This document shows, piece after piece, positions 1-28,878 of a stretch of 29,534 nt of DNA (its first letter is position 1; each line of letters begins with the position of its first letter). The translations under genes and the position numbers were made by a program. The notes beneath the pieces were generated by a model. It saw only the letters and a list, made by a program, of their open reading frames with translations, made no database searches and was not told the DNA's origin. Origin of the DNA: Octopus sinensis (taxonomy: Eukaryota); assembly GCF_006345805.1 (NCBI RefSeq), contig NW_021832913.1, positions 1 to 29,534 of the forward strand, written 5' to 3'.

Positions 1-9
1 ATATATATA

Positions 10-2362
10 ACTTTCCAGGTGAAGAATGTACCCCACAACATAGACTGGTAGTTAGTGACTTTAGGATCAGGACTAAGAGGACGACCACAAGACGACCAAC
101 ATGGAGAAGAAGGATCTGGAAGCTTAAAGATCCTACAAATGGACAGAGATTTAGAGACATATTACTTGAAGCCTTTGACGAAATAGAAGGGGATATAGCT
201 ACACATGGGGCAGAAGACAACTGGAGGTCTCTAAGGGACAACCTGCTGAGAGCCACTGACCAGATCTGTGGTTGGTGCAAAGTCCCCTCAAGACCCAAAA
301 TAACGTGGTGGTGGAACAATATAGTTGACAGGGCTCTTAGACAAAAGAAACAGGCTTGGAAGCACTGGAAGAATGGTGGTAGCAGGGAATTGTATCAGAC
401 TGCAAGAAGGGAAGCTAGGAGGCAGGTGTATTTAGCCAGAGTGGAAGCAGATAAGAAAAAATTTAACAATGTTCTGAGCCATGAGGAAGAAAGACTTGAG
501 GTATTTCGTGTTGCAAGACAGAGTGTGAGAGAAAATCGTGATGTGGTAGGACAGAAATGTGTTCGCATGGATGATGGTTCACTTGCGCTAAATGAGGATG
601 CAAAGAGAGAGGTTTGGAGACACCACTATGAAAGGTTGCTGAATAAAGAAAATGAATGGGATAAAGAGAGTCTGTCGAATGTCGATCCAACAGAGGGACA
701 AGCTATCCGAGTTGACAGTTCCTTGGTAGTTAAGGCAATTAGAAGCATGAAGACAGGGAAAGCCCCAGGCCCATCAGGAATTACTGCAGAGATGATTAAA
801 ATATCTGGCAGTGTCGGCTATAGCCCAGTCACCCATATAGTTAACCAGGTGATACACGAAGGAGTCATTCCCAATGACTGGTGTAGCAGCATAATAGTCA
901 ACTGCTAAAAAGTTAAAGGTGACGCCCTATATACAAATAACAACAGGGGTATCAAGCTATTGGATCAGGTAATGAAGGTTACGGAGAGGGTCATAGCCCA
1001 ACTAATTAGAGAGAGAGTTAGTTTAGATGAGATGCAGTCTGGGCTCGTGCCAGGGAAAAGTACTGCTGATGCTATATTCCTGGTAAGACAGCTGCAGGAG
1101 AAATACCTAGCCAAAGATAAGCCCCTGTACCTGGCTTTTGTTGACATGGAGAAAGCCTTCAACATGGTACTCCGATCACTTATCTGGTGGTCAATGAGGA
1201 AACTAGGGATAGATGAATTGTTAGTGAGAGCTGTGCGAGCCATGTACAGGGACGCTGCTAGTAAGGTGAGGGTTGGCAACGAGTACAGTGAAGAATTCCG
1301 GGTAGAGGTTGGGGTCCACCAAGGCTCAGTCCTCAGCCCCCTCCTATTTATCATAGTCCTCCAGGCAATAATGGAGAAATTCAAGACAGGATGCCCCTGG
1401 GAGCTCCTCTATGCTGGTGACCTTGCTCTAATTACTGAGTCACTATCAGAACTGGAGGAGAAGTTTCAGGTGTGGAAGCAAGGATTAGAATCAAAGGGCC
1501 TTAGAGTCAACCTAGCTAAACCAAAGTCCTAATAAGTAGGAAGGTAGACAAATCACAAACGCCTTCAGGCAGATGGCCCTCCTCGATCTGTAGAAAAGGC
1601 GTAGGTAGAAACTCTATAAGATGTACCAAGTGTAAGCTATGGACACATAAGAGGTGCAGCAATGTCAAAGGAAGGCTAACTAGGAAAATAGTTTTGTATG
1701 TGGCAGATGCTCAAGTGCAATAAACACTGAAAATGTGCAGAGACCAACTTCCACCACATTCCAGGGAGAAAAACTAGAAATAGTTGATAGCTTCCATTAC
1801 CTAGGTTACCAAGTCAGTAGCGGGGGTGGGTGTGCTAAAAATGTAACTGCTAGAGTAAGAATAGCCTGGGCAAAGTTCAGAGAGCTTTTACCCCTGTTGG
1901 TGACAAAGGGCTTCTCGCTCAGAGAAAGGCAGACTGTACGATGCATGTGTACGAACAGCCATGCTACATGGTAGTGAAACATGGGCTGTGACTGCTGAGG
2001 ATATGCGCAAGCTCACAAGAAATGAAGCCAGTATGCTCCGATGGATGTGTAACGTCAGTGTTCATACTCAACAGAGTGTAAGTACCTTGAGAGAAAAGTT
2101 GGACCTAAGAAGCATCAGTTGTGGCGTGCAAGAGAGACGTTTGAGCTGGTATGGTCATGTGACGAGAATGGCTAAAGACAGTTGTGTGAAAATGTGCCAC
2201 AACCTAGCGGTTGAGGGAACCTGTGGAAGAGGTAGACCCAGGATAACCTGGGACGAGGTGGTGAAGCACGACCTTCGAACTTTATGTTTCACCTACGAAG
2301 AGACTAGAGACCGAGACCTATGGAAGTATGCTGTGCGTGAGAAGATCTGGCAGGACAAGTGA
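10..2362 (+). pseudogene. Disrupted RTE ORF (APE end, RT, embedded PHD finger, C-terminal domain)
   Basis: Premature TAA at 906-908, frameshifts near 1520, 1695 and 1925, and YADD changed to YAGD. ORF-track pieces 390-908, 960-1532, 1735-1974 and 1961-2362 are collinear. Confidence 0.92.
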
Positions 2363-4097: not shown

Positions 4098-4224
4098 GGG
4101 TTGGTTAGCAAGGGCATCCAGTCATAAAACCCCTGCCAAAACAGTTAGTGAAACCTGTCGCAATCTTCTGCCAAGCCAGCCTGTCAAATATCCAACCCAG
4201 ATGTGAAATGATGATGATGATGAT
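4098..4224 (+). mobile_element. Isolated, diverged RTE-type 3' tail fragment
   Basis: GGTTGGTTAGCAAGGGCATCCAG...TCCAACCCA...(ATG)n resembles the copy-1 tail at 2808-2970. Confidence 0.75.
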
Positions 4225-6563
4225 TTGTGGTTGGAGCAAAGCTTTTGCCAGATCAAAGGTGATATGGTGGTGGAACAATCAGGTCGACAGGGCTATAAAA
4301 GAGAAGAAATGGGTTTGGAAAGTGTGGAAAAGGGATGGTAGCAAAGAATCATATTAGGTAGCTGAAAAGGAAGCAAGGTACCAGATTTATCTTGCTAAGG
4401 TAGAAGCAGACAGGAAGAGGTTTGCCAATATCTTACAGTATGAAGACCAGAGACTTGAGATTTTGCATATTGCTACACAGGTGCAGGAGTGGCTGTGTGG
4501 TAAGTAGCTTGCTTACCAACCACATGGTTCCGGGTTTATTGCCACTGTGTGGCACCTTGGGCAAGTATCTTCTACTATAGCATCAGGCTGACCAAAGTGT
4601 TGTGAGTGGATTTGGTAGACGGAAACTGAAAGAAACCTGTCGTATATGTGTATATATATATATATATATGTGTGTGTAAATATTTGTGTGTCTGTGTTTG
4701 CCCCCCCCCCCCAACATCGCTTGACAACCAATTGTGGCGTGTTTACATCCCTGTAACTTTGCAGTTCAGCAAAAGAGACCGAGAGAGTAAGTACTAGGCT
4801 TACAAAGAATACGTCCTGGGGTCGATTTGCTCGACTAAAGGCACTGCTCCATCATGGCCGCAGTCAAATGACTGAAACAAGTAAAATAGTAAAAGAGTGT
4901 GTCAGAGAGAATTGAGATGTTGTGTGAGATAAAATGTGTACAGATAGATAATGGCATGCTAGTATTTAGTGATTTGGAAAAGAAAAATGTGTGAAAGAGC
5001 TACTGTGAAGGGCTATTAAATGTAGCGGATGAATAGAAAAAGGGAGTCTCCCCATCATGTGAACCCAACAGAGGGGCCAACCATTCATATAGACAGCAGT
5101 ATGAAAAATAATGTAATTAAAGATATAGAGACTGGAAAAATCCTTGGTTCATCAGGAGTCACTGTTGAGATGCTTAAAATATCTATAAAGAAGGATACAG
5201 TCTGGACACTGTTTAGTTAATTAGGTTATTCAGGAAGGTATAATCCCCATGACTGGTATACCAGGATCATAATCAGCTAAAAACAGTAATGAAATGCATT
5301 TAACATAATTTATAGAGGCCTAATTACTTGACAAAGTGATAACAGTTATGGAGAGAATAATAACCCAATTAATTAGAAACAAATTAAGCTAGATGAAATG
5401 CAGTTTGGCACAGTAAGGGAAGAAGTCAGGCAAGTACAAGGGTAATATTAAGCTAAGAATAAGCTGTAGTACTTGGCATTAGTCGACCTGGAGAAAGCAT
5501 TCAGCAGGGCACCCTGCTCTGTAAAATGCTGGTATTTCAGGAAGCTAGAGATAGATAGATGGCTTGTGAAAAGCAGTACAGGTATTGTACAGGGTTACTC
5601 TAAATAATATTAGGGTTAGTCATGAGAACAGTGATAAACTTAGATAAATTTTAGGGTTAGGTGTACATCAAGTCCTCAGCCACCTCCTATTCAGAATTGT
5701 CCTCTAGGTCATAACAGAGGAATTTAAGCCTGGAAACCAATGAGAACTACTATATGTAAATTACCTTGCTCTCACAGCAGAATCTGTAACAAAACTAGAA
5801 AAAAGTTTCAGGTGTGGAAGCAAAGCCTGGAATCAAAGAGCCCTGAAGTTAACTTAGGAAAGACAAAAGCCTTAGTAAACAAGAAAACAAACAGGACCCT
5901 ACTCACTTCAGGTAAACGGTTTTTCTCAGAATGTAAGAATGGTGTAGGCAGAAATTTATTTCAGTGTATTCAGGGCAAGCAATGGATGCACAACAGGTGC
6001 AGTGGAACAGTAGGGAGGTTAACAGAGAAAGTAGTGTCTGTATGTGGAAAATGCATAGGAGTCATAAAATCTACAAGTATACAGGAAATGGATTTTCACA
6101 AATGCCTAAGAAGGTGCTCTAAAGGTACTGGGCAATATCTGCTAGCTAGGTGACCTAATTTTCAGTGGAGGAGGAAATGAAATTGTTAGAATAAGATGGA
6201 GAAAGTTCAGAGATCTTTTACTTCAAGTAGCAACCAAAAGTCTCTCTTTCTGAGAGAAAGGAAAGTTGTGTGATGCCTGTGCAGAAACAGGAATGCTACG
6301 TGATAGTCAGCCATGGTCCCTGAATGTAGAGGGCATGCAAAGACTAGAAAGGTATGAAGTTACTATGTTCAGTATGATGTGTAATGTTTGTCTGCAAGGG
6401 GCTCTTTCCCCTCACCATCTCCAACATCTCAACCTTATCAACCTACAGAAGTCAATGGAGCCTGGTACAGCTCATGGCCATGCCAGCTCCAGTCAAACCA
6501 TCTCACTCATACCGACATGGAAAATTGATGCTAAACGATGACAATGATGATGGTGATGATGAT
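4225..6563 (+). mobile_element. Old, heavily degraded RTE-clade copy 2, interrupted by a SINE, with an internal deletion before the tail
   Basis: ICGWSK...WWWNN, VNPTEGPTIHIDSS, GKILGSSGVTVEMLK, VDLEKAF, FQVWKQSLESK and a PHD remnant are collinear with copy 1. Many stops and frameshifts; degenerate (GAT)n tail at 6538-6563. Confidence 0.9.
4480..4897 (+). mobile_element. tRNA-derived SINE with internal microsatellite and CR1-like LINE tail, inserted in RTE copy 2
   Basis: A-box-like TGGCTGTGTGG at 4490 and a degenerate B-box near 4532; internal (TA)/(TG) and C12 tracts; tail GGCACTGCTCCATCATGGCCGCAGTCAAATGACTGAAACAAGTAAAA. RTE sequence resumes collinearly on both sides. Confidence 0.88.
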
Positions 6564-10804: not shown

Positions 10805-11944
10805 ATTTAAAGAATGTAGTTGTGTAAAGATGGAATAATGTGAGATGCTCACCCCTTCACGGGAAGGAGTAAATTAAATACATAAAAATTCAACTACATT
10901 GACAGTTACATAAATTTGAAAATGAACACCCAGACAAGTCTGGAACACTCTTTCTGCTGAATTTCCAAATCAGGATCACAGAGGATGGTAACATTCACAT
11001 GAATCTTTACAAAAGAAGCAGTGACTAGGAATCTATTCATGCATTATGATTCAGCCCAGTCCACCAGAGCCAAAACTGCACACATACAAAATGAAATAAC
11101 ATGCATAAGGGACAGATGCAGTGAAGTAAGTGACAAAGCCATCAGCACGAAGCGGTTCCTCAGGAACTTAGCATGCAATGGCTATCCACCATCCACAGCT
11201 AAAAGGCTGCCTCTGTGAATCATGAAAGTGGGTAAACTACACAGAGAAGCCCATAACATCAGATCAGAAAAGTGCTTCCTTAGACTGCCCTACTTTGATG
11301 ACAGAACATCAGTAGCTATCCAATATGCCATCTGCAGGGAGAGACTTAACATACAGCTGGTACACACCAGTCTATCCCTGAAGAAAGCTCTATCAAGGGA
11401 AAATACCAAAGAGAGAACTGTGGGGTGCACACTCACCAACTGCCCCATCAATGACATCAAAACATGTAGTATATGAGGTCGTCTGCAATAAATGTGGGGC
11501 ACCCTACATAGGGAGCACTACTAGGAAACTACACATTCAAATAAACAAGGAAATGCAGATAGACACTTTGATAAAGAAACACCTCATAAAGTGCTAAACC
11601 CAGAATTTCAAAGTTTCCATCAAGGCAACACAACACAACAGGGGTAAAATTGAAACCAGTCATTAATGACAGGAAGAAACTATACGAAGCAGACTAGTTG
11701 TTATAGCAACAGCAACCTGCACATGTCACTTCTTCACTCCTTCACTGCCCCACCACACACATACTTCTGAGCAACAAACTTTTTCCAACCACCACTTTTC
11801 TGAATTTCTTGAAGAATGGGTCTTCATGCCAAAATATAGAAGTAAAAGGTAAAACTGCAACTTTGATCTTTTCCCTTTTCAATTTGTAGTTTAATTTGTA
11901 CCTTCTTGCATTGTTCTGGCTTTACACAACCACATTCTTTAAAT
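10805..11944 (+). mobile_element. Penelope-like element fragment (RT C-terminus, linker, GIY-YIG endonuclease, pLTR remnant)
   Basis: IKFENEHPDKSGTLFLLNF..NLYK..NLFMHYDSA; FLRLPY; CTLTNCP; VVYEVVCNKCGAPYIGSTTRKLH (from 11466). Terminal inverted match between 10805-10829 and 11920-11944. Confidence 0.85.
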
Positions 11945-12067: not shown

Positions 12068-12108
12068 ATATATATACATATATATATATATATCTACATA
12101 TATATATA
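11983..12108. repeat. (CA)n-(TA)n compound microsatellite
   Basis: Read directly. Confidence 0.95.
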
Positions 12109-13288
12109 TTTTTTTTTCATTTCATCTAGTTTCAGCTCACAAGCTGTGGCCATGCTGGAGCACTGCCATTCGGTGTTGCTACATGATTTTACTTCACGAA
12201 TACTTTTCAGTAATTGACATTTGATGAATGAGAGAGTTTGATGCAGCTGCCCTCATCTGCACCTCCTGCCGTGAAGTTGGTTCATCTGGGACACCTGACA
12301 GGAAGAGGTCCAGCTTTATTTTAAAGACATCCGTATCCACCTCATGCAGGTCTCTCTGGTCCTTCGGGAGGATATTGAAGAGCCGTGGACCTCTGAAGCC
12401 CAGGCTATTGCGGTATCTTCTCCTACATCTTGAAGGTAAATTTGGAGTCCTTGGCACTATGCAGTGGTGCCCAGTTCTAGTATTTGTGTAACTCTCGATG
12501 CCAAAGTTTGGGACAAGTCCTTCTAGGATCTTCCAGATGTATATTATGGCATATCTTTCTTGCCTACGCTCTAAGGAATAGAGTCTTAATCTCTTGAGTC
12601 TTCTCCAATAGCTTATATGCTGCATAGAGGCTATCTTTTTTGTTGGATTGCCTCAAGTTCTGTGATTAATTTGACACTGGTTGGTGACCATAGCTGAGAG
12701 CAATAGTCAAAGTGGCTTAGGACAAGTGTCCTCAAAGGACCATCATGGTTTCCTGGTCTCTTGTTCTAAAAGCTCTAAGAATCCATCCGGTCAGCCGCCT
12801 ACATTTCATTGCCAATTTAGCAACATGCACATGAAACGTTCATCATTGCTCATGTAAATACCCAGGTCTCGCACTGATTGTGCCTCTGGGATTGCAATCC
12901 CTCCAGGTCCAGTGTATTTATTGGGTATTGCATTTAGTTTTGCATGCTGATAGCATAAAGCTTGAAAGTTTTCAGCATTGAACTGCAAGCTATTCTTTTC
13001 AACCCACTTGTATATTTCATCCAGCTCACATTGCAGGTGCATAGTGTCTTCAGGGTTCTGTATTACCTGTGAAACTTTTGTATCATCTGCATAACTTGTG
13101 ATCGTGGCTCTCTGCGTGGCTAAGGGCATGTCTGAGAGGGCCATTATCAACAGTAGCGGTCTCAAAGCAGTGCCTTGTGGAACACCGCTCACTATTTGCG
13201 TGTTATTGGAGGTGGCCCCATTGGCTACTACCACCTGACATCTATCCTTCAGAAAGTCATGAAGCCATTCTCCCAATTTTCCAACTAT
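12109..13288 (-). mobile_element. CR1-like LINE A, 3' part (late RT, C-terminus, 3' tail)
   Basis: SGVPQGTAL, SYADDTK, SVRDLGI, LYSLERRQERY and GVPDEP; tail GGCAGTGCTCCAGCATGGCCACAGCTTGTGAGCTGAAACTAG...A9. Confidence 0.93.
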
Positions 13289-13688
13289 AGTAGTAAGTAG
13301 CTGTTGGAACAGAAAGACGTGTTTCAGCTCGCTCTGACCAGTAAGTGGCTGTTGGAACAGAATACATATGAACCCAACTTTACAATTTTCAACTGAAAAC
13401 TCAACTGAAAATTCTTCCTTCTCAAAAACGACAAAGCCTTAATTCCAGTGAAAGCTACGTTTTTGTATCGTGAGCACGTATTATGAAAGATATAATACTG
13501 TAACGATAATATAATTATTCGTAAGTACACAATATTCCTATTAACAAACACACAATAGTTTACATTATCTCAGAACTATAACATATACCAGTACTACTGT
13601 CTCCTACTGTTCAATACACCACAGAAGTTGATATTTTGAATATTTCTATCCTTATTTGCCATTACCTATATTTATTACCTATATTTAC

Positions 13689-14179
13689 TGTTATTATCTA
13701 TATTCTTGTTGCACAAACAACTTGGTTAAGTGACCAACAACGAATCGAAGACACTGAAAAACAATAGGTAGCTCACAACAACAGTAACAAAAAAAATACA
13801 CATCTTTAAATATCGCAACTGGTCGTACATTGAAGTGGAAACTTCATTAACTCATGGTTCATTCTCTTTCAAACCAATAACATACATGCCTCAAACTTCA
13901 ATTTCATTGCTAAAAGAGTTGGCCATCTCTTTAATAACCCTGCTTCATATCTCACTGTGAGAAACCTGTAACCACGTGGATAAACTAGCCCGAAATTTTT
14001 TACTCACCACAGCCCATTTAATGTTATTATCTATATTTTTTTGTTGCACAAACAACTTGGTTAAGTGATCAACAACGAATCGAAGACACTGAAAAACAAT
14101 AAATAGTTCACAACAACAGCAACAGTAACAAAAAAAAACACATCTTTAAATATTGCAACTGGTCATATATTGAAGTGGA
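13689..14179 (+). repeat. ~150-bp direct repeat in LINE B 5' UTR (13689-13839 and 14022-14179)
   Basis: Both copies run from TGTTATTATCTATATT through GCACAAACAACTTGGTTAAGTGA and CGAATCGAAGACACTGAAAAACAATA to TTGAAGTGGA. Confidence 0.92.
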
Positions 14180-14538
14180 TACAACTACAACATTCACATC
14201 AGCAGCTAAAAGAACTAATAGACCCGTCATTATCATCATCATCATTGTTTCCATCTTCTACTGCTACTTCCCCTTCTTCATCTTCTCTCCCCCTCCTCCT
14301 GCTACTACTCTAGTGGCCAAAGCCAAACATTCATTCTACCTCGCCAGTGACCCATCCCAACCACTCTTACTTTCTCCATATCCCACCACCATAGCTCCAC
14401 TAACAACTCAAGTACCATTGCTACTACTACTACTATCTCAGCCAGTGTACAAAATCAACCACTGCTCCTTCCCCCTCTCCATTCAAGTCAAACAATTCTA
14501 AATCTCAAGCTATTCACAATCCACCGCCCACATAAACG

Positions 14539-15947
14539 ATGACGGGTAATGGAAATCCACGGACTGCCAGCTCAGAGAGCAACACTTGCCTGGCCACAGA
14601 CATCATATTGAAAATCATCTCATCAACACAAAATCAAGATATAAAAAGTGTCTTGTCGAAATATGATATCAAACAGGAAAGTGGAGCAATATACAAAAAT
14701 ATTTTCACCAACTGTAAGTTTACGATGTTAAAGAAAGCAGCAGCTTTCTTGAATGATGGTGTCCAAGTTGAGCTCACAAAACCAAACCTCACCAACTGGA
14801 TTATAGCAAGGATTGAAAACTTCCTCCCGGAGACTTGCAAAATGTGTGACAAACAGTACTGCATTACATTTGGCCAAAAACCAGCTTTGGCATGCTTCAT
14901 CTGTGGACAAGGAATACACGAAGCGTGCTACTTAAAAAAGATAAATAACCACATCATTCCAGATATTCTAGGACTACACTGGCTATGCAGTTATTGTTCA
15001 CCAAGGGCCAAATAACGAATGAACCTAGGACCCTACCACAGACAGGCCGTTCTAAACAGACATTGATTGGCGAAACTGACATGGCAAATAAATCCTGCCA
15101 CACACAGGCCATCCAAGTGCCTCTTGTAAATAACAAGAATGAAGACAATGACATGCAAACACCTACAAAACAAGAAACAGGAGATCTTGCAGAAAAAGAC
15201 CAAACTTCCCACGAAAAGAAACAGATCCAGAGCAAACGCTCAAATGAAGGAAGGCCAGTATGTATCCATTACAGGCGCAACAAGTGCAAACATGGTCTTT
15301 CAGGTACAGGGTGCATGTACAGTCACCCCAAACCATGCAGACCATATATCAACTTCGGTACTGATCGAAAAAAAGGATGCCAAAATGGCCGAGAATGTGA
15401 ACTCCTTCACCCAAAGATGTGCCGCAATTCGCTGAGAAAAAAAGAATGTTTTGGTGAGAATTGCAAATTTATGCACCGGAAGGGTACAATTCGCATAAAA
15501 ACTACTGAACCCACACCACCAGGACCAAGCTCAGCAGGGTATGAAAACCATTTCCCAAAAATGCGGAAACCAGGTCATGGCTCAGCAGGGTATGAAAACC
15601 ATTTCCCAAAAATGTGGAACACAGGTCATGGCTCAACAGTGAATGAAAATCATGCTACTCAATTGTATACATCAGCTGTAACAAACCCAAACTCGCAGAA
15701 ATTCGATATAGTAATGAATGAAAGCAGTTTTTTAGGCATAATCTACCAACTACAACAACAGCTGTACTCCATACAGACGACTCAGCAAAACCAGGCAACA
15801 TTGATACAAAGGCTGACACCTGGACTTACAGGGCACGTACAACAAATACAGACAGCCCAGCAGACCGAATATCCAGTCAGCACAGTCCCAGCAACTACAA
15901 CAGTCTTGCCAACAATAGGGCAGATGTATCCGGTACAACAAGCATAA
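14539..15947 (+). CDS. LINE B ORF1: PHD finger, three CCCH zinc fingers and a Q/T-rich tail (one frameshift near 15010)
   Basis: CKMC..CFIC..HEAC..WLCSYC (C4HC3), then Cx7Cx8Cx3H, Cx13Cx5Cx3H and Cx8Cx4Cx3H. Adding one A at GCCAAATA joins ORFs 14539-15015 and 14985-15947. Confidence 0.85.
15529..15653 (+). repeat. 51-bp in-frame tandem repeat (~2.4 copies; SAGYENHFPKMxxxGHG) in ORF1
   Basis: Units start at 15529, 15580 and 15631. Confidence 0.9.
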
Positions 15948-18931
15948 TAACAGCAAATATCCAGGGTCTTTATCCGAAAACAAAACAGTGTAAAGTCCCT
16001 TTCTTGGAAGAATTAGCAACAGAAAACAACTCCAAAATAATTGGAATTACTGAAAGTCATCTCAACGAAAACATCCGCAACAGCGAAATCACAATCAATA
16101 GATTCAACATCTTCAGATGTGATAGACAAGGCAGATCCCATGGGGGCGTTATCATGTATATCCATGATACCTATGCATGCATAGAACTTGTCAATGAATC
16201 AAATGCCTACTGCAACCTGCTGTGCATAAAAATCATCCAACTTAATACAGTTGTAACAATAATGTACAGACCGCCAAACAGCCCAACATTATCCTTCACT
16301 GAGCCACTGACGAAGCTCCAACAAATTCTGGGAAACATGGCAAGTCCAATGCCAGACATTATCCTCCTTGGTGACTTCAACTTCCCTAACATCATCTGGC
16401 CACATGGACACATACTAAAACTGGGGACAAAAGCTGAACAAATACAGGCAGCCAAACTGTTGGAAGTCACAGAGAAATTATACCTCAAACAAATGATGAC
16501 AGAAGCAACAAGAAATAATAATACGATCGACTTGGTTTTCACCAACAACGAGGACACGCTATTTGACCTTCACTCAACCCCAACAATCCTTTCAGACCAC
16601 AATATTATTGAAATGCATTTACACATTGGTAATGAGCCCAATGCCACAACTCTTAAACAAAAGGACATGCCAAAGCTATGCAGGTATGATTATCACCAGG
16701 CAATGGGAAACTATTAACAACCAGTTACAAATCATTGACTGGGATCTCTACCTTACTGGGCCAGATAAACACAAGAAATTCTTAAACAAGATCGAAGAAA
16801 TATGTGAAAAAAATGTTCCTCTAAAGAAAACCAAGTCCACAAAAAAACCTGTACCACGGGAGCGAAAGATCCTGATGCGCAAAAGGTCAAGACTAAGAAA
16901 CAAAACATCTAAGCTGACATCAAAACATGAATTACAGAAAGTCCTTGACCAAATATACAGATTAGAAGACAATCTAAAACAACACTATGATGAAGAACGT
17001 AACAATGCAGAAAAGAAAGCCATAGAAAACATCAAGAAAAATCCAAAATGTTTCTACAGTTTTGCAAAGAAATACTCGAACACCAAGTCAACAATAGGAC
17101 CTCTCCAGAGACAAAATGGGGATGTAGTGAATAACCCTATTGAAATGGCAGAAATGTTGGGTCAACAGTATGAAAGTGTCTTCAGTGAGCCATCTAAAAC
17201 CATGAAGATCCATGACCCAGGAAAATTCTTCAAGGATATCGACCATACTAAACCTACCCTATCCGACATTGATTTCAACCCAGAAGACATAGCAAGAGCA
17301 ATAGACAAGCTCTCCATGCACTCGGCTGCGGGGCCTGACGGTTTCAATGCCATGATACTTAAAAACTGCAAGGCACAATTGTCGAAACCCCTTTACATGA
17401 TATGGAGGGAATCTATGGAGAATGGCAAAATACCAAATACATATAAAGAAGCACACATAACTCCAATACATAAAGGGGATAGCAAATCAAAACCAAAGAA
17501 CTACCGACCATCTCACTGACATCACACATTATCAAGGTCTTCGAAAGAATAGTTCGTGGAAAACTGGTTGAGTTCCTGGAATCCAACAATCTGATGAATT
17601 GCAACCAGCATGGATTCAGGTTAGGTAGATCATGCCTTTCCCAACTACTGGCACACCATGACCAAATCCTAGAAAATCTAGAGAATGGATACAACACAGA
17701 TGTTATCTACCTCGACTTTGCCAAGGCATTTGACAAGGTAGATCATGGCATCCTGGGTCACAAACTTCGAAAGCTAGGAGTAGGAGGAAAAGTTGGTACA
17801 TGGATAAACGAGTTCCTTACAAATAGAACTCAAACAGTCACTGTGAATGGAACCCATTCAACACCATCACCTGTGACCAGCAGTGTTCCTCAGGGTACAG
17901 TACTCGGCCCAATCCTGTTTCTCATCCTCATCTCTGACATAGATGAAGATACAACCAGCAAAGTCTCATCCTTTGCTGATGACACCAGGGTCATGAGACA
18001 AATCAAAGACGAGGTGGATACAGAGGCCTTACAAAAGGACCTGACCACCATATATAAATGGCAGGAAACAAACAACATGTTGTTCAATGATAAGAAGTTT
18101 GAACTAATTCGCTACGGAACAGATCAAGATCTGAAAAATACAACAAACTACAGAAACCCATCAGGACAACAAATAATGGAAAAACAGTATGTGAAAGATT
18201 TAGGCATCCACATGGGAACCAACCTAAAATTCAGAGAACACCTTGACTCAGTCTGTCTTACTGCAAGAAAGTACAGTGGGTGGATCTTGCGCACCTTCAA
18301 ATCAAGAGATACCTCAACAATGAAAACCCTCTGGAACAGTATGATACTTCCGAGGATTGACTACTGTTCTCAGTTGTGGTCACCAACAACAAAGGGCCAA
18401 CTATCTAAGATAGAATCGCTCCAAAGAAATTTTACCTCATACTTCTCAGAAACGAGGGACCTGGACTATTGGCAAAGACTCAAAACCTTGAGGATGTACT
18501 CAATAGAAAGAAGATTTGAGCGATACCGAATTATATACATTTGGAAAATGATAGAGCAGAAGGTGCCAAACTTTGGTATCAAAACCTACCACTCACTGCG
18601 CCACGGAAGACGCTGCCAGCTGCCACCAATCAACAAAAAGGCTGGCCAGGCAGCAAAAACCCTGCGAGAATCAAGTCTGTTGGTTCGAGGAGCACAACTG
18701 TTCAACTCCATTCCGGTACATGTCAGAAATCTATCAGGATGCAGTGTGGAATCATTCAAATTGCAACTGGATAGATACTTAAGCACCATTAGAGATGAAC
18801 CCCATCTCCCAGGATATACACAACGAGCACAAACTGACTCAAACTCGCTCCTACACATGTCAAATTTAAGCAGAGAATACAACCTGGCAACCACACCAGA
18901 CTCTGAGGGTGGAGTCTTCGACTTGGCCTGA
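15722..18931 (+). CDS. LINE B ORF2: APE endonuclease and reverse transcriptase (frameshifts near 16702 and 17510, no nonsense codons)
   Basis: TANIQGL, GITESHL, MYRPP, LGDFN, IDLVF and SDH (APE); AAGPDG, NYRP-ISLTS, QHGF, YLDFAKAFDKV, VPQGTVLGP, FADD and KDLG (RT). Confidence 0.93.
15728..15734 (+). promoter_or_regulatory. Putative -1 frameshift slippery heptamer T TTT TTA (LINE B)
   Basis: In phase with ORF1 (agT TTT TTA). The -1 frame opens after TGA at 15719-15721 and is continuous with ORF2. Confidence 0.68.
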
Positions 18932-18966
18932 GCATGGACTCAAACCCAAATGAAATGAAATGAAAT

Positions 18967-20815
18967 GCCAAGATCATGCAGTTTGTGACATATTCCATGA
19001 TCGACTTTATCAAAGGCCTTTGCAAAGTTGAGATATATGACTTCCACATTTGAGTGGTTGGGCAGTTGTTTCAGCACCCAGTCATAGTGTTGTAGGAGCT
19101 GAGTTAGGCAGCTTCTTCCTGGTAGGAAACCATGTTGGGTGTCAGGCAGCAAGTTATTTTCTTCAAGGAAAGTGATTAGTGTCCTTCTGACTATTCATTC
19201 CATGACCTTGCTGATGTGTGAGGTCAGAGAGATAGGTCTGTAGTTCTTGGCCTCCACTCTGCTACCTGCTTTATGAATAGGGCATATTTTACCCTCCTTC
19301 AGTTTTCTTGGAAGTTTGCCAGTTGCAAGGAAGCTCTGAAAGAGGAACTGCAGTGGTCTTGCTAGGAATCGCTTACATACTTTTAGAAGGATTGCTGGGA
19401 ATCCATTGGGGCCAGTAGCTGAGTTTGGGTTCATTTCATCTATAGCCCTTATTACATCGTCTTCTTTTATATTGATATAATCAATCATCATTGCCTCTGA
19501 ATTTATATCTGCAGTGGTAAAGAAGTCAGTTGGATTGCTGACTTGAAAGTGCCCTAGGGGTGGAGTGAAAATACTTTTGAATTGCTCATTTAGTATTTCA
19601 CTTATCCTCATTGGATTTCCTGTGAGTGTACCATCTTTTTCAAGGAGTGGCCCTATCCTGCAGTGCACCGTAGCTGTTTCTTTGGCAAACTTGTAGAAAG
19701 CTCTGGGCTTGGATTTTATATTGTCTATAGCCCAGGTTTCTTTGTCAGCTCTTTCTTTTTCATGGGGGAGTTGCAGACATTTTTCAATTTTCAACAGTTT
19801 TATTTTCAGGCAGGACTTTTCACTGCTTTCAATTTGTTTGTTTAGGTGATTTGAAACTTTTGTACACCGTCTCAAGAATTTTCCTCTCTCTGGGGATTTT
19901 GTTCTTGTGTACAGTGGCCTTTCTCTCTGGGACACATTTGTAGCATATGGTTTGCATTACAGGCATGAATTGTTGAAGTTTCATGTCATTGTCTGGTGAG
20001 GAGAGACATTTAGGCCAGTTTTGTTTGAGGATCTCTTTCTCAATTTGTTTCCAGTTTGCCTTATGGAAGTTCAAGCTGGAAAGATTCTGAGAGTTTCTTG
20101 TAGGCTGCATGTCCATGCTTCCCTTTGGCCCATACATGGTCAGCTCTACCATGTTGTGATCCGAGAGTAGTGTCAGTGTCACTTTCACATTATGGATGAG
20201 ATCCATATTATTTGTGAAGCAGAGATCCAGTATGTTACCTACCCTGGTTGGTTGGAGTACTATTTGCTCCATGTACAGAGTGTTGATGAGGTTCAGGAGG
20301 GACCTTGCCTGTCCTCGTTCGCATTGTGTCATTCCTGGGAGAGAAAGGCCCTCGGGCCATCTGACATTGGGCAGATTGAAGTCTCCCATAAGAAGTACAC
20401 TTATGTGTTGTTCAAATGTGACTAGAACTTCTATTTTTGTAAGGCAGTCTTCAAACTTACCTACATGACTTGGAGCATCTGGAGGACGATATGTAGCATA
20501 TATAACTACACCGAGTGGCCTTATATGTACAATTAGTATGTCACACATTGAATTTGAGTATGACAAAAGGACCTGGAGTGTGAGGTCCTCGCGGATGTAC
20601 ATAGCAACTCCACCATAACTCCTTTCTTTTCTGTTGGTCCATAACACAACATACTGTGGTATGTGTATTTCCACATTTGCTATATCTGATTTCAGGTGTG
20701 TTTCCGTAAGTGCTATGCATAAGGCTTGATTGCATGCAACAATGTCTCTCAAGAAAGGGATTTTTGTCCTGTTACTGAGTGTTAGCAGTCCTCTGATGTT
20801 CAGTAAGCATGGAGA
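18967..20815 (-). mobile_element. CR1-like LINE A, 5' part (APE through early RT), 5'-truncated at the start of APE
   Basis: LLNIRGL, ALTETHL, TYRPP, MGDFN, SDH, ATGPNG, NYRPISLTS, QHGF and FAKAFDKVDHG, with several frameshifts. Confidence 0.93.
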
Positions 20816-23800
20816 GGACGGCAAAAACTGCTGGTTCGCCCAATCGACACCCCACCAGAACTTCAGGGGACTCAAAGAGAAGAGCTTTACTGAAGGAAGA
20901 CAAGAAATGTCTCCCAGGAAAACTTTCAGAAAGGAAGTATGCTCCTCAGATGTTCTGCGCAATGCAGCAGCTGAGCAAGAGTCTTTTTTATGCATGGCGC
21001 AAAGAATTGTCCGACAACTAACCTGGCTACACCAAGCACAGAGAAGGAACCCTGCCCACCACTATGCAAGACCACCACAGTCAACAGACACGGGATGGCC
21101 TCCCCTAACGCCTGCACAGCCGTCACCCTAATACTTTTACTAAATATTGGGGGCCTGTTGCATCAAAATAGAAACAAAATTTCTTTCCTGAGAGATCTTA
21201 CTGCATGCAATCAAGCCCTATGCATAGCACTTGTGGAAACTCACCTCAACCCTGATATAGAGGACGCAGAAGTACACATACCAAACTATGCCATACAGCG
21301 AACAGACAGAAGGGAAAGGAGCCATGGTGGAGTTGCTGTATACATCCGAGATGACCTCACACCCCAGATCTTAATGACATACTCAAATTCGGTATGTGAC
21401 ACTTTAATTGTATACATAAGACAACATAATATAGTCATATGCAATACATATTGCCCACCGGATGCTCCAAATCACACAGACAAGTTTGAAGATTGCCTCA
21501 CAAGAATTAAAGAAATCCTCATGAATCTGGAACACCATGTGACCATATTTCTTATGGGTGATTTCAACTTCTCCAACGTCAAATGGCCCGAAGGTCTCAT
21601 ACTCTCAGGAATGAATCATTGCAAGCAAGTACAGGTGGAGTCCCTGCTCAACCTCACCAACGCCTTATTCATGGAGCAAGTTGTACTCAAACCAACTAGG
21701 GTGAATAACATTCTGGATCTCTGCTTCATGAACAATATGGACATCATTCATGATGTGAAAGTGACACCGACATTAGTTTTGGATCACAACATAATAGAGC
21801 TGTCTATGTTTGGGCCAAAAGTAACCAGAGACATACAGCCTAAAGGAAGCACCCGAAATCTCTCCAATCTGAACTTCCACAAAGCAGATTGGAAATCAAT
21901 CCAAAAAGAGATCCTCAGAGAGGACTGGCCGCAATGTCTCTCCACACCAGACATTGACATGAAACTAGAATGTTTCATGTCTTCTGTGCAAGCCATATGC
22001 CAGAAATATGTCCCAGAGCACAAGGCCAAAACAAATAGGAGCAAGATTCCAAGAGACAGGAAGATCCTCATGAGACGACGGACGAAGGTTGCAAATCGTC
22101 TCAACCAACATCCCAAAGTAGCGAAATGTCCTGCCTAAAAACAACACTGATGGAGATCGAAAAAAGGCTGCAACAATCCTATGTGAAGGAGAAAGCAGAC
22201 AAAGAAGTCTGGGTTATAAAAAACATTAAATCAAACCCAAAGGCCTTCTTTCATTACGCAAAAGAAACAGTCTCAGTGCACTACAAGATAGGACCCCTCC
22301 TCCAAAAGGATGGCTCCCTCACAGACAGTCTAACTATGATCAGTGAGATGCTGAATGACCAGTTCAAAAGTGTCTTTACCACCCCGTTGGAACACAGACA
22401 AGTGAACGAACCAGTGGACGTCTTTGCCGCCTCACCTATAATCAGCGAGGCGGTTACAATAGAATGTATTGACATTAGCGAAAAAGATGTTCTTCTAGCC
22501 ATAGATGAAGTGGACACAAACTCAGCTGCTGGTCCAGACGGTTTCCCAGCCATCCTCCTCAAAGCGTGTAAACATGCCCTGGCAAAACCCCTCAAGATTC
22601 TCTTCCAGAGCTTTCTTGCGAATGGTAAACTGCCAAGCAAGCTGAAGGAGGGAATAATATGCCCAATACATAAAGGGGGAAGTAGAGCAGATGCCAAAAA
22701 CTATAGGCCTATCTCTCTGACTTCACACATCAGCAAAGTCATGGAACGGATAGTCAGAAAGAAACTAATCGCATTCCTTGAGGAAAATAACTTGCTGAGT
22801 AATACCCAGCATGGTTTTCGACCAGGTAGGAGCTGCCTGACCCAGCTCTTACAGCATTATGACTGGGTGTTGAGGCAGTTACTCAACAAATCAAATGTGG
22901 ACGGAATCTACCTCGATTTTGCAAAAGCTTTTGACAAGGTGGATCATGGTATGATATGCCACAAACTACGTGACCTCAGCATAGCTGGAAAACTTGCAGT
23001 GTGGTTGCATGACTTCCTGAAAGATAGGAGTCAGGCAGTAGTGGTTAATGGAGCCACCTCTATGAACACACAAATAGCGGTGTTCCACAGGGCACTGTCT
23101 TGGGACCACTGCTTTTTATAGTGGCCCTCTCAGATATGCCCTCAAATGCCCGGATAGCCACTCTGGCCAGCTATGCAGACGATACGAAAGTCTCACAGAA
23201 AATACAGAACCCCAGCGATGTTGCACACCTGCAGCAGGAGTTGGACTCAATCTACAGATGGGCTGAGGATAATAATATGCAGTTTAATGCTGAAAAGTTC
23301 CAGTCCCTGTGCAACCAGCATCCAAAACTGAATATTAAACTTACAGGATACACCGGTCCACAGGGAATTTCAATCCCAGAGCCTAAGTCTGTGAGGGACC
23401 AGGGTATCGACATGAGTGATGATACCTCTTTCCAAGTGCACATTACCAGGATGGCGACAAAGTGCAGACGACTGGCTGGGTGGATCCTAAGAACATTCAG
23501 AACCAGAGATAAGGAAACCATGATGGTCCTCTGGCAGACATTCATCCTCAGTCGCCTGGATTACTGCTCACAGCTATGGTCACCCACCAGTGTAAAATTA
23601 ACAGCGGACCCTGAAGCAATCCAGAGAAGATTCACAAAGAAGATCGTCTCTTTGCAACAGCTCAGCTACTGGGAAAGGTTGAAACAGCTAAGACTCTACC
23701 TCCCTGGAGAGAAGATGGGAGCGGTATGCAGTAACATATGTCTGGAAGATCCTGGAAGGAATTGTGCCAAATTTTGGCATTGTAAGCTGCACCAATGCTA

Positions 23801-24157
23801 AAACGGGACGACACTGCATAGTGCCAAAGATCCCAGCAATGCCATCACGCTTCAGGACCAGCTTCTGCAACAGCCTGGGTTTCAAGGGCCCACAGCTTTT
23901 TAATATTCTCCCAAAGAGTCTGAAAAACTTGCACAAAGTAGATGTAGCGGTTTTTAAATCAAAGCTGGACATCTTCTTGTCAAGAGTCCCAGATGAACCT
24001 ACCTCACGGCAAGAGGTGCAAATGAGAGTAGCTATATCAAACTCCATTCTTCACCAAGTGCCACATATTAGACAAGGTTTGTCGTAATAACAGTGTAGCA
24101 CAAAACGGCGGTGCAACAGCAGGGCCGCAGCTCTGAGCTGAAACTAGAAAAAAAAAA
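20816..24157 (+). mobile_element. CR1-like LINE C, 5'-truncated in ORF1, disrupted ORF2, complete 3' end
   Basis: ORF1 remnant GKNCWFAQ...SFLCM (to 21131); ORF2 pieces 20990-22138, 22126-23121, 23100-23801 and 23764-24087 with APE motifs and YADD; tail GGCCGCAGCTCTGAGCTGAAACTAG-A10. Confidence 0.93.
20984..20990 (+). promoter_or_regulatory. Putative -1 frameshift slippery heptamer T TTT TTA (LINE C)
   Basis: In phase with ORF1 (tcT TTT TTA). The -1 frame opens after TGA at 20972-20974 and continues into APE. Confidence 0.62.
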
Positions 24158-24189: not shown

Positions 24190-25766
24190 CATTAAGTGAA
24201 GCTATATCCCCTTCTATTTCGTCAAAGGCTTCGAGTAGTATGTCTCTAAATCTCTGTCCATTTGCAGGATCTTTAAGCTTCCAGACCCTTCTCCTCCAAG
24301 CAGATCTTCTTCTGGGCAACCATTTAGCTCTGATCCTGAAGTCGCTAACTACTAATCTATGTTGAGGAGTGCATTCTTCGCCTGGAAAGGTTTTGGCATT
24401 TATAATCAGCCCTCTTTCCCTTTTTCTGGCAAAGATGTAGTCAATCTGGCTGGTGTGTCTGCCAGAACGGTAGGTGACTAGGTGAGAGGAGAGTTTCCTG
24501 AAGTTGGTATTGCAGACCATAAGGTCATTTGCATCGCAGAACTCCAGCAGCCTGGTTCCCTCCTCATTACGAGAACCAAAACCGTAGCCTCTCTGAACGC
24601 CCCCGACATGCCGACCAACATGTCCATTGAAATCACCTGCCACGAAGAGAAGGTCACTGTCATTTGTCAACGAGGTAGTTCGCAATAGGGTGTCATAGAA
24701 TTGGTCTTTTTGTCCTTCCGGTAGCCCTGGTTGAGGGGCATATGCCGAGATGATGGTAGCTGTCCTGTGGTGAAGGACTAATCTAATTTTAATTACTCTG
24801 TCACTTACTCTGACTACCTCAATTACCTTACCTACCCATTTCTCTGCAAGAAGTATACCCACGCCCCCGACCCCGTCAATGTTCCCTGCCCAGAAAATCT
24901 TGTACCTGTGTTCCTTGCCTGTGAGGAGCCTAGCGGAACCTCCTCACCACCTTACTTCCTGGATACAACATACATCCACACGTCTCCGTTCAAGCAGCTC
25001 TACAATCTCTCCAGACCTACCTTTCAATGTGCCAACATTGAGTGTGCCAACTCTGAGGGTGTGGGAGGTGTGGGCATCTGAGACCCTGGGATGAGGGGCA
25101 GCCGTGTCATGTACCTGAAAAAAAGCTTGCATTTGGCAGATTTCATATGGAAAACACTAGACTACAACCTGCATACATTTCACAATTTTTTGCGCTATAT
25201 GATCAGATAAACCTACATAGGTGCTAGTGGGGGTGGGGGTAGTTAAGTAAGACAGGGGTAGAACTTCCGGTATTTTAGGGGGTGGGAGGGCGGGCGAGAA
25301 CATAGAGGCAACTAGTTTGAATATTATATTTAGGGGAAAATAATTAGATAAATGAAATAGAGCCAGAGAGAGAATGAAAATAAATAATAAATACGGTATG
25401 ATATATGATACGAGGGGGCAATATTTTGAGGGATAATGGAATAAACAACGAAGATGGCACTGAAAGAAACGGTAAACTTTAAAAGAATGCATGAAGACGC
25501 CATGTTTTAGCGAAGGGAAACGAAAGGGGAACAGATTAAGGTATCTAAACAAACGCTTAAAAATATGAAAGTAGCAGTTGAAGTTTAAAGTCTTAACTGG
25601 CCATTTTGAAAATCCGTGTTTTCTCTGGAGGCGAAGCGAGTGAATGAGAGAGAGATACAATCGTCCACAGGTTTTTAAGGGAATTAGGATTTGTGTGTAT
25701 GTGTGGAGGGGGGCAGGAACACGAGGGGAGACAGAGCGAGAGAGAGAGAGAACATAGAGGCAACTA
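24190..25766 (-). mobile_element. RTE-clade 5' half (putative 5' UTR and APE domain), 3'-truncated
   Basis: ATG at 25132; RVGTLNVGTL, CCIQEVRW (premature TGA follows), SAYAPQ, AGDFNGHVG, QIDY and PQHRLV. Its end overlaps sequence homologous to positions 10-200. The 5' boundary is uncertain. Confidence 0.9.
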
Positions 25767-26876: not shown

Positions 26877-28878
26877 CATCATCATCATCATCATCATCAT
26901 TTAACGTCCGCTTTCCATGCTAGCATGGGTTGGACGGTTCAACTGGTGTCTGGGGAGCCCGAAGGCTGCACCAGGCCAGTCAGATCTTGCAGTGTTCTAC
27001 AGCTGGATGCCCTTCCTAACGCCAACCCCTCCGAGAGTGTAGTGGGTGATTTTATGTGCCACACGACACAGGTGCCAGACGAGGCTGGCGAACGGCCACG
27101 CTCGATGGTGTTTTTATGTGCCACCGACACAGGTGCCAGACAAGGCTGGCAGACGACCACGCTCGGATGTGTTTTATGTGCCACCGACACAGGTGCCAGA
27201 CGAGGCTGGCGAACGGCCACGCTCGGATGGTGTTTTTATGTGCCACCGACACAGGTGCCAGACAAGGCTAGCAGACGACCACGCTCGGATGTGTTTTTAT
27301 GTGCCACCGACACAGGTGCCAGACGAGGCTGGCGAACGGCCACGCTCGGATGGTGTTTTTATGTGCCACCGACACAGGTGCCAGACAAGGCTGGCAGACG
27401 ACCACGCTCGGATGGTGTTTTTTATGTGCCACCGACACAGGTGCCAGACGAGGCTGGCGAACGGCCACGCTCGGATGGTGTTTTTATGTGCCACCGACAC
27501 AGGTGCCAGATTAGGCTGGCGATCGGCCACGATTGGATGGTGATTGTTACGTGCCCTCAGCATGGAGGCCAGTTGGTGCAGTACTGGCTACGGCCACGTT
27601 CGGATGGTATTCTTGTGTGCCACCGGCACTGGTACCACAAAGATACAAATTCCATTGATGTTCATCTATTTTGATTTTGTTTGATTTTCACTTGCCTCAA
27701 CAGGTCTTCACAAGTGTCACAAGAAGGAAGGTATGCACAGGTGGACTGACTACGTCCCAGGTAGGGGCCACGGGTTATGGCCTGACTAGTCTTGCCGGGT
27801 CTTCTCACGCACAGCATACTTCCATAGGTCTCGGTCTCTAGTCATTTCCTTGGTGAGACCTAAAGTTCGTAGGTCGTGCTTCACCACTTCGTCCCAGGTT
27901 TTCCTGGGTCTACCTCTTCCACAGGTTCCCTCAACTGCTAGGGTGTAGCAACTTTGCACGCACTATCTTCAGCCATTCTCGTCATATACGACTACCAGCG
28001 CAGCCGTCTCTCTTGCACACCACAACTGACGCTTCTTAGGTTCAAACTTTTCTCTCAAGGTACTTACACTCTGACGATTATGACACTGACATTACAACAT
28101 CCATCGGAGCATACTGGCTTCATTTCTTGCGAGCTTACGCATATCCTCAGGCAGTCACGGCCCATGTTTCATCACTACCATGTAGCATGCTGTACGTACA
28201 CATGCATCATAAGTCTGCCTTTTACTCTGAGCGAGAGGCCTTTTGTCACCAGCAGGGGTAAGAGCTCTCTAAACTTTGCCCAGGCTATTCTTACTCTAGC
28301 AGTTACACTTTCAGCCACCACCCTACTTACTACTTGGTCTCCTAGGTAGTGGAAGCTATCAGCTACTTCTAGTTTGTCTCCCTGGAACGTGGTAGTAAGT
28401 TGGTCTCTGCACATTTCCAGTGTTTATTTCTCCTGAGCATCTGCCACATACGAAAACTATCTTCCCAGTTAGCCTACCTTTGACATTGCTGCACCTCTTA
28501 TGTGTCCATAGCTTACACTTGGTGCACTCATAGAGTTTCTACCTACACCTTTTCTACAGATCGAGCAGGGCCATCTACCTGAAGTCGTTTGTGGTTGGTC
28601 CACCTTCCTACTTATTAGGACTTTGGTTTTGGCTAGGTTGATTCTAAGGCCCTTCGATTCTAATCCTTGTTTCCACACCTGGAAAACTTCTCCTCCAGTT
28701 CTGATAGTGACTCAGCAATTAGAGCAAGGTCATCAGCTATAGGAGCTCCCAGGAGCATCCTGTCTTAAATTCTTCCGTTATTGCCTGGAGGACTATGATA
28801 AATAGGAGGGGGCTGAGGACTGAACCTTGGTGGACCCCAACCTCTACCCGGAATTCTTCACACTGTACTCGTTGCCAA
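26877..28878 (-). mobile_element. RTE-clade 3' half (late RT, PHD, C-terminus, 3' UTR array, (ATG)n tail), close relative of copy 1
   Basis: EEFRVEVGVHQGSVLSPLLF, WPCSICRKGVG and ADSFHYLG; collinear with ~1274-2970; (CAT)n at 26877-26900. Confidence 0.95.
27046..27630 (-). repeat. 60-63-bp tandem array in RTE 3' UTR (8 conserved and 2 degenerate units, ABABABA pattern)
   Basis: ATGTGCCAC at 27054, 27116, 27176, 27238, 27299, 27361, 27424 and 27486; degenerate cores near 27549 and 27615. Confidence 0.95.

What the first reader, a model, noticed from the sequence alone, without database searches (positions are those of the whole stretch)
20972..21160. Independent second instance of the slippery heptamer in LINE C
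Seen: TGA in the -1 frame at 20972, then tcT TTT TTA (20984-20990, S-F-L as in LINE B), then about 140 nt of dual-open overlap until ORF1 stops at 21131, beside the APE start LLLNIGGL. The surrounding sequence shows no evident similarity to LINE B, so the heptamer appears selectively retained. Caveat: here an ATG overlaps the last heptamer base (20990), so reinitiation is also possible for C.
Basis: partly seen in the sequence, partly recalled or inferred. Interest (0 to 1): 0.7.

Follow-up and report, generated by a model that had tools for sequence, protein, structure and literature searches.

The report
HIV-type frameshift site in octopus LINEs
A broken copy of a jumping gene (a LINE retrotransposon, likely from an octopus) keeps a run of six U's where its two genes overlap, at the same place as five distant relatives, which likely makes ribosomes slip back one base to produce the second gene, although an ordinary start codon further on remains possible for this particular family.

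Summary
In detail: TGA 20972, T TTT TTA 20984-90 in ORF1 phase, ATG 20990, ORF1 TAA 21129, endonuclease start about 21131. In related copies in four runs the A at 20990 is G in 52-86% of depth, so that ATG is not conserved, while the six T's show no variant of 8% or more in the one run that can be fully accounted for. Corrections: the family site is U_UUU_UU(A/G), G being non-canonical; TAA 21129 is private to this copy; a second ORF2-frame ATG (21095) was missed and is the real rival for C. The clade-level case is strong: T TTT TTA in phase in 6 of 7 junctions, no Met before the endonuclease in 4, and x-Phe-Leu in 135 of 141 ORF1 relatives. No 3' stimulator was found and no product was shown. 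Best reading: -1 ribosomal frameshifting giving a Gag-Pol-like fusion. The scan noted another LINE slippery junction on other DNA (e1-7350016), not this clade.

The parts
20807..21143 (+). 3' part of LINE C ORF1, 5'-truncated at about 20807 inside a CCCH zinc finger: linker, x-F-L, predicted amphipathic helix, P/Q-rich tail
   Evidence: 86% identical over 111 aa to O. vulgaris-named P0008; loose ends show family C continuing before 20807; helix after F-L predicted on the B homologue
20972..20974 (+). last stop (TGA) in the ORF2 frame, 9 nt before the heptamer; ORF2 can only be entered after it
20984..20990 (+). slippery heptamer T TTT TTA in ORF1 phase; family form T TTT TT(A/G)
   Evidence: 20990 A>G in 52/56/63/86% of depth; no T variant of 8% or more in run X3
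20990..20992 (+). ATG overlapping the heptamer's last base; not conserved (GTG in the majority of laid depth)
   Evidence: the ORF1 residue after F-L is Cys (which creates this ATG) in only 2 of 129 relatives
21095..21097 (+). second ORF2-frame ATG, 16 codons before the APE Asn and 46 nt before the family ORF1 stop, with G at -3 and +4; the rival start for family C
   Evidence: A and T show no variant of 8% or more in X3 (bookkeeping), G not resolved
21129..21131 (+). ORF1 TAA private to this copy
   Evidence: T>C in 98-99% of depth in 4 of 4 runs; P0008 reads Q here
21141..21143 (+). family ORF1 stop (TAA), overlapping the first APE strand
   Evidence: P0008 ends QYFY
20975..24087 (+). LINE C ORF2 (APE endonuclease, then RT) in four frame pieces: 20975-22138, 22039-23121, 23049-23801, 23692-24087; a dead copy
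   Evidence: (PF14529, PF03372, PF00078)
24148..24157 (+). A-run at the 3' end of LINE C
15719..15947 (+). homologous junction of LINE B: TGA 15719, T TTT TTA 15728-15734, no ORF2-frame ATG before the APE, ORF1 stop 15945
18965..20806 (-). LINE D, a C-related element (64% aa in APE) head to head with C and cut at its APE start; its 3' part is 12078-13288, split off by the insertion of B

Best explanation
This is the ORF1/ORF2 junction of a dead copy of an APE-RT LINE, where ribosomes translating ORF1 likely slip -1 on the U-run (U_UUU_UUA, often U_UUU_UUG in family C) and would make a low-abundance ORF1-ORF2 fusion of the Gag-Pol type. Shown: the layout (ORF2-frame stop, heptamer in ORF1 phase, -1 overlap, APE), the loss of the overlapping ATG in related copies, and the conservation of the site across the clade at codon and protein level. 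Inferred: slippage itself, the fusion protein, and a low efficiency set by the U-run alone, since no 3' structure was found. I put -1 frameshifting at about 0.75 for the clade and about 0.6 for family C, whose site has relaxed at the seventh base and which has a usable AUG downstream.
For: (1) T TTT TTA in the correct phase inside the -1 overlap in B, C, L001, L002, L003 and L004. It is the only TTTTTTA on the sense strand of L001, L002 and L003, and APE identities among these six are 27-48%. (2) Given the amino acids and each element's own codon usage, the chance of these codons is 0.005-0.047 per element; the product is about 3e-7 for the four loci found after the hypothesis was set; 0 of 23 background F-L pairs in the ORF2s are T TTT TT(A/G). 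(3) B, L001, L002 and L004 have no Met between the heptamer and the APE Asn; their first Met lies 19, 19 and 66 residues inside the domain, or is absent over 150. (4) Of the 150 best ORF1 relatives, 141 have a tail of 70 aa or more and 135 of these carry F-L; in 130 (query-like rows removed) the residue before F-L is never Q, E, K, M or W, which have no codon ending in T, against 25% in the linker (H20:Q0, N22:K0, D23:E0). (5) In family C the ATG at 20990 is lost in 52-86% of depth while the T-run stays. (6) A G-starting codon follows in 117 of 129, as at the HIV site, where the 3' GGG matters (PMC5009743).
Against: No trans-frame product, ribosome footprint or reporter result exists. No hairpin or pseudoknot beyond shuffles lies 3' of the site in any of 6 elements, whereas reviews call a stimulator a critical element (PMC7618472). 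The majority family-C form has Z = G, which the same review excludes. C has a second ATG at 21095, and L003 has two Mets before or at its APE start. L017, in the same weakly supported clade (80/87), lacks T TTT TTA and has A AAA AAC plus an ATG. The protein-level exclusion is confounded: a predicted helix starts at the residue before F, and N-cap preferences (recalled) also disfavour Q/E/K/M. The profile used itself contained the F-L columns, which favours hits that have them. The dual-open overlap is unremarkable in C (0.50) and B (0.69) alone. Within family C only about a tenth of positions vary, so three invariant synonymous T's are weak evidence. No natural in-frame fusion protein was found (weak).
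Confidence: 0.62

Rival explanations
1. In family C, ORF2 is made by termination-reinitiation (or leaky scanning) at the ATG at 21095, 46 nt upstream of the family ORF1 stop; the U-run is an ancestral frameshift site now relaxing.
For: The ATG has G at -3 and +4 and gives a 12-residue leader before the first APE strand. Its A and T show no variant of 8% or more in X3 (bookkeeping). The heptamer's Z base has drifted to G in 52-86% of depth. C is atypical in having Cys after F-L (2 of 129) and a reduced ORF1 with one CCCH finger (P0008). Loose-end lines, read by eye, suggest that the sister family D has an ATG at the APE start about 10 nt before its ORF1 stop. SART1 and L1 ORF2 depend on ORF1 translation and may reinitiate (PMC2881922).
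Against: The six T's are still kept in C. The ATG lies in ORF1 Gly-Trp codons, which constrain its T and G anyway. Four of six relatives have no such ATG. 46 nt is a long backward distance compared with known stop-start overlaps (recalled).
Confidence: 0.2
2. F-L is kept for protein reasons (N-terminus of an ORF1 coiled-coil helix), the U-run is a by-product, and ORF2 starts by L1-like AUG-independent initiation.
For: The predicted helix 159-187 begins at the residue before F; S/D/N before F-L and E/D two places after fit a recalled N-cap and capping-box pattern. AUG-independent initiation is considered likely for L1 ORF2 (PMC5009743).
Against: It does not explain the codon choice T TTT TTA in 6 of 6 DNA junctions that have F-L. 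His is enriched 5-fold while Thr (0.5x) and Gly (0.4x), good N-caps by recall, are depleted. The other hydrophobic helix positions vary freely among L/I/M/V while F-L does not.
Confidence: 0.07
3. TTTTTTAG is a 3' splice acceptor, and a spliced RNA joins an upstream AUG-bearing piece to ORF2.
For: G follows the heptamer in 4 of 6 DNA junctions and in 117 of 129 by protein inference. It would explain the missing 3' structure and an ORF2 frame that opens only here.
Against: C (next bases TG) and L003 (next bases CC) have no AG. The 25 nt upstream are only 32-50% pyrimidine. An acceptor would tolerate C in the tract and any phase (recalled consensus).
Confidence: 0.06
4. Polymerase (transcriptional) slippage on the T6 run adds a base to a minority of RNAs and fuses the frames.
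For: It needs neither a 3' structure nor a particular seventh base, which fits the A/G drift in C.
Against: The phase is fixed as x-F-L in 135 of 141 proteins. No indel of 8% or more is listed among genomic copies (table 4). Six T's is short for RNA polymerase II slippage (recalled).
Confidence: 0.04
5. ORF2 of C starts at the ATG at 20990 that overlaps the heptamer.
For: It is in frame and the frame is open to the APE.
Against: It is GTG in 52-86% of laid depth in 4 of 4 runs, has a pyrimidine at -3, lies 150 nt upstream of the ORF1 stop, and is absent from the other five junctions.
Confidence: 0.02

Closest known systems
[quoted passage not shown]
   Same: Same heptamer, same phase and F-L codons, mostly followed by G; upstream structural/RNA-binding ORF, downstream enzyme ORF in the -1 frame.
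   Different: A non-LTR retrotransposon, not a retrovirus; no 3' stem-loop detected; family C often has UUG; no product shown.
Dictyostelium TRE5-A and TRE3-A (APE-RT non-LTR elements; PMC5911963 figure legend, passage read)
   Same: [quoted passage not shown]
   Different: The passage names no slippery site or test; different host group, and ORF1 is described only as a 51 kD protein of unknown function. I did not see the primary papers.
SART1 (Bombyx) and human L1 ORF2 translation (PMC2881922 passage; primary papers seen only as references)
   Same: Bicistronic LINE RNA whose ORF2 translation depends on ORF1 translation.
   Different: Those reinitiate at or after the ORF1 stop; here ORF2 opens 117-270 nt before the APE start, inside ORF1, and 4 of 6 elements have no AUG before the domain.
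CR1/L2 lineage LINEs with PHD-containing ORF1 (PMC4120745, passages read)
   Same: PHD-like N-terminal ORF1 domain (weak Pfam PHD hit for B, E 0.01) with APE and RT in ORF2.
   Different: That survey has no occurrence of 'CCCH' or 'frameshift'; the ORF1 here has three CCCH fingers and an x-F-L helix. The Repbase clade (CR1-like, Proto2 or other) could not be assigned.

Membership tests
APE-type non-LTR retrotransposon (LINE) | ORF2 with N-terminal APE endonuclease followed by RT | tested here: met
   PF14529 E 2e-9, PF03372 E 1e-7, PF00078 E 3e-15 and 1e-11 on the C pieces
APE-type non-LTR retrotransposon (LINE) | 3' A-tail, 5' truncation, many diverged copies | tested here: met
   A-run 24148-24157; 5' end cut at about 20807; 443-717 contigs laid per run over a wide identity range
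named LINE clade (CR1, L2, Proto2 or other) | position of the RT domain among reference clade members | not testable with these tools
   No reference set is on hand; only groups B, C, D, L001-L004 and L017 (80/87, weak)
canonical eukaryotic -1 programmed ribosomal frameshift | X_XXY_YYZ heptamer in the zero-frame phase | tested here: met
   window copy of C, B and L001-L004
canonical eukaryotic -1 programmed ribosomal frameshift | Z is not G (PMC7618472) | tested here: inconclusive
   met in this copy and in 5 relatives; not met in 52-86% of family-C depth
canonical eukaryotic -1 programmed ribosomal frameshift | -1 frame open from the site into the downstream domain, zero frame open up to the site | tested here: met
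   (not beyond chance for C alone; about 1e-4 when the five tested elements are multiplied)
canonical eukaryotic -1 programmed ribosomal frameshift | 3' stimulatory stem-loop or pseudoknot a few nt downstream | tested here: not met
   folding z from -2.0 to +0.9 over 18 windows, C -0.8 to +0.8; pseudoknot and stem scores within shuffles in 6 of 6; no Rfam match above chance
canonical eukaryotic -1 programmed ribosomal frameshift | trans-frame product whose amount depends on the slippery site | not testable with these tools
   needs reporters, ribosome profiling or proteomics
SART1-type translational coupling | ORF2 AUG overlapping or adjoining the ORF1 stop | tested here: not met
   nearest ORF2 ATG in C is 46 nt before the family stop; none before the APE in B, L001, L002, L004
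3' splice acceptor | pyrimidine tract followed by AG | tested here: not met
   no AG in C or L003; present in B, L001, L002, L004; upstream 25 nt 32-50% pyrimidine; consensus recalled

The most novel reading that the evidence does not exclude
A large clade of LINEs with a PHD plus CCCH-finger ORF1 (2,381 protein clusters at 50% identity match the ORF1 profile) makes its endonuclease-reverse transcriptase as a Gag-Pol-like ORF1-ORF2 fusion, by -1 frameshifting on an HIV-type U_UUU_UUA site with no RNA stimulator. Family C would be a lineage caught relaxing that site as an AUG start takes over.
Probability: 0.45. Interest if true: 0.8.

Novelty: new variant of a known kind. Interest (0 to 1): 0.66.

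Why it matters
How LINEs translate ORF2 is an old open question, with tested answers (reinitiation) for only a few elements. A defined, conserved slippery site in a widespread LINE clade gives a one-base, directly testable mechanism. It predicts an ORF1-ORF2 fusion protein, a retrovirus-like way of setting the ORF1:ORF2 ratio, and possibly frameshifting without a stimulator that is tuned by tRNA-Leu supply. It would also change how ORF2 is annotated in these families, since 4 of 6 have no usable start codon. Family C is the most informative member: it lacks the AG that a splice model needs, and it offers a natural A/G comparison plus an AUG rival.

Tried and rejected
No whole genome is held for the window, so no copy-by-copy family alignment was possible; laid contigs were used instead. 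No RNA holder was listed, which is no evidence on expression. Three scans of viral contigs found no relative. The genome-contig scan gave 2 loci: L017 (clade member without T TTT TTA) and L018 (another clade). Further matches in those two genomes were other LINE types or gave no usable junction. Of the 16 metagenome loci, 4 belong to the clade and have a junction. L006-L010 and L014 were examined and have no T TTT TTA. L005, L011-L013, L015 and L016 were left out because the junction was missing, broken or a duplicate. A search for long ORF1-ORF2 fusion proteins found none among 631 candidates (weak). 3' RNA structure was not found. The idea that the 5' part of C lies beyond D's 3' end was rejected: 10.2-12.1 kb has no match to P0008. 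The label Proto2 was considered from memory and dropped, since the passages read give no ORF1 or junction features to test. Ten cluster look-ups for ORF1 relatives gave no names, so the hosts of the wider clade are unknown. The joints are low-depth joins among DNA-type contigs and were not used as splice evidence.

Full report
Setting. The window is eukaryotic repeat-rich DNA. No genome is held for it. The closest named relatives of the B and C ORF1 proteins are Octopus vulgaris proteins at 97% and 88% identity, so the host is likely an octopus. LINE C is a dead APE-RT element whose ORF2 lies in four frame pieces and ends in an A-run at 24148-24157. It is cut at about 20807 inside a CCCH finger and abuts, head to head, a related element D, which is itself split by the insertion of LINE B.

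Observation. Two of the five sense-strand TTTTTTA in the window are the B and C junctions. Outside the heptamer the two junctions are no more alike than shuffles: 44% of 300 shuffles score as high. B and C share 37% amino-acid identity in the APE.

Position 20990 reads G in 1279 of 2462, 15086 of 26862, 751 of 1189 and 1144 of 1330 depth units (52, 56, 63 and 86%; 23-51 contigs each). So the overlapping ATG is not conserved, and the family site is T TTT TT(A/G). No row for 20984-20989 is among the 40 shown, but 27 rows are hidden. For X1, X7 and X16, 1, 3 and 2 T-substitution places remain unaccounted for. No indel is listed. Depth here is summed contig depth, not copy number, and one run may be the source of the assembly. 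About a tenth of ORF1 positions vary at this threshold, so the within-family invariance is weak evidence alone. The TAA at 21129 is C-starting in 98-99% of depth, and P0008 ends QYFY, so the family stop is 21141-21143. A second ORF2-frame ATG lies at 21095, 16 codons before the APE Asn, with G at -3 and +4; its A and T are invariant in X3 by the same bookkeeping.

Relatives at DNA level. A metagenome scan gave 16 loci and a genome scan 2. In a 12-row APE tree, B, C, D, L001-L004 and L017 group together with weak support, 80/87. Seven of these eight have a junction; D is cut before it. Six have T TTT TTA in ORF1 phase inside a -1 overlap, 117-270 nt before the APE start, and in L001-L003 it is the only such 7-mer on the sense strand. 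L017 has instead an in-phase A AAA AAC and an ATG. Given the encoded residues and each element's codon usage, the chance of the observed codons is 0.005-0.047 each, about 3e-7 for the four loci found after the hypothesis was set; L002's background is small, and shared ancestry makes the elements less than fully independent. None of 23 background F-L pairs in the ORF2s has this form. B, L001, L002 and L004 have no Met between the site and the APE Asn, while C and L003 have two each. L001 has an in-frame ATG 144 nt upstream of its site, within a zinc finger. The open overlap alone is weak: P = 0.69, 0.50, 0.13, 0.04 and 0.08 for B, C, L001, L003 and L004.

Relatives at protein level. A profile of seven ORF1 sequences matched 2,381 clusters at E up to 0.001; only the best 150 were returned and examined. 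One had no finger match, 8 had tails under 70 aa, 135 had F-L 15-100 residues after the last CCCH finger and 6 did not. In 130 rows, after removing 5 query-like ones, the residue before F-L is never Q, E, K, M or W against 25% in the linker (binomial p 4e-17). The pairs that differ only at the third base run H20:Q0, N22:K0 and D23:E0, while 54 of 142 other F-L pairs in the same proteins are preceded by such residues. A G-starting codon follows in 117 of 129, and Cys, which creates the ATG in C, in 2. Two cautions apply. The profile contained the F-L columns. And a predicted helix begins at the residue before F (pLDDT about 90 in the helix, 65 overall), so N-cap preferences (recalled) give a similar exclusion, though His is enriched 5-fold and Thr and Gly are depleted. 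The hosts of these proteins are unnamed.

What is missing. No stimulatory structure was found: folding z-scores ranged from -2.0 to +0.9 over 18 windows, pseudoknot and stem scores lay within shuffles in 6 of 6, and Rfam gave one chance-level match. No long fusion protein was found (weak). Nothing here shows translation.

Mechanism. The layout, the codon-level conservation and the absence of start codons in four of six elements point to -1 slippage of Phe- and Leu-tRNA on the U-run, giving a fusion of PHD/CCCH ORF1 to APE-RT at low frequency (inferred). For family C the case is weaker. The majority site ends in G, which PMC7618472 excludes from the eukaryotic motif while also noting that wobble pairing seems not to be required, and ATG 21095 offers a reinitiation route. 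Loose-end lines, read by eye, hint that sister family D has an ATG at its APE start. The C/D branch may therefore be moving from frameshifting to an AUG start. C argues against the splice-acceptor rival, as it has no AG after the run.

Known cases. I read passages only, found by term search, of PMC5009743 (first 300,000 of 449,034 characters held), PMC10294476, PMC7846101, PMC4120745, PMC4700185, PMC1965478, PMC2881922, PMC1925062, PMC5911963, PMC6547452 and PMC7618472. Searches turned up no report of a conserved U_UUU_UUA site in a LINE clade or of a PHD-CCCH ORF1 type. The library lacks most subscription papers and Repbase Reports, and I opened no supplements, so a prior mention may exist. 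Earlier scan notes had nothing at this place or for this sequence.

Verdict. As a member of canonical -1 frameshift cassettes it fails the stimulator test, so I file it as working like one: a new variant of a known kind. Interest 0.66, carried by the clade-wide conservation rather than by this dead copy.

Noticed in passing
window 12078-13288 (-), 13289-18964, 18965-20806 (-): LINE D is split by the insertion of LINE B: guide-protein residues 299-624 map to 19923-18961 and 623-769 to 13288-12845. B ends in short GAAAT-type repeats near 18945-18965.
   Followed up: partly
window 20805-20807: D (cut at its APE start) and C (cut in a zinc finger) meet head to head with no spacer, though only 74% identical; a deletion or template switch between two subfamilies is possible.
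   Followed up: partly
window 20808-20980 and P0008: Family C ORF1 has one CCCH finger and no evident PHD in P0008, against PHD plus three fingers in B and most relatives.
   Followed up: partly
L007 1380-1386, L008 1303-1309, L010 1492-1498, L017 1360-1366, L003 811 and 883: More distant LINEs with -1 overlaps also carry in-phase XXXYYYZ heptamers (A AAT TTT, G GGT TTT, T TTT TTC, A AAA AAC), hinting that frameshifting may reach beyond this clade; no chance control was run.
   Followed up: no
L017-L026 (handles G001, G002): Two bacterial metagenome-assembled genomes each hold 4 matches to eukaryotic LINE endonucleases, likely host contamination.
   Followed up: no
window about 10920-11600 (+): A decayed coding stretch that by recalled motifs resembles the end of a Penelope-like RT and GIY-YIG endonuclease; not scanned against Pfam.
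   Followed up: no
window 13683-13842 and 14016-14182: An 89% identical direct repeat of about 160 nt upstream of B ORF1, perhaps a duplicated 5' UTR unit.
   Followed up: no
window 15530-15630: An in-frame tandem duplication in the B ORF1 linker (SAGYENHFPKM twice), present once in P0002.
   Followed up: no
window 3-2362 (+), 4222-6387 (+), 24196-24943 (-), 27356-28878 (-): Several pieces of another, single-ORF-like LINE family (RTE-like by recall) and a 62-nt-type tandem repeat at 2523-2962 and 27045-27637.
   Followed up: no
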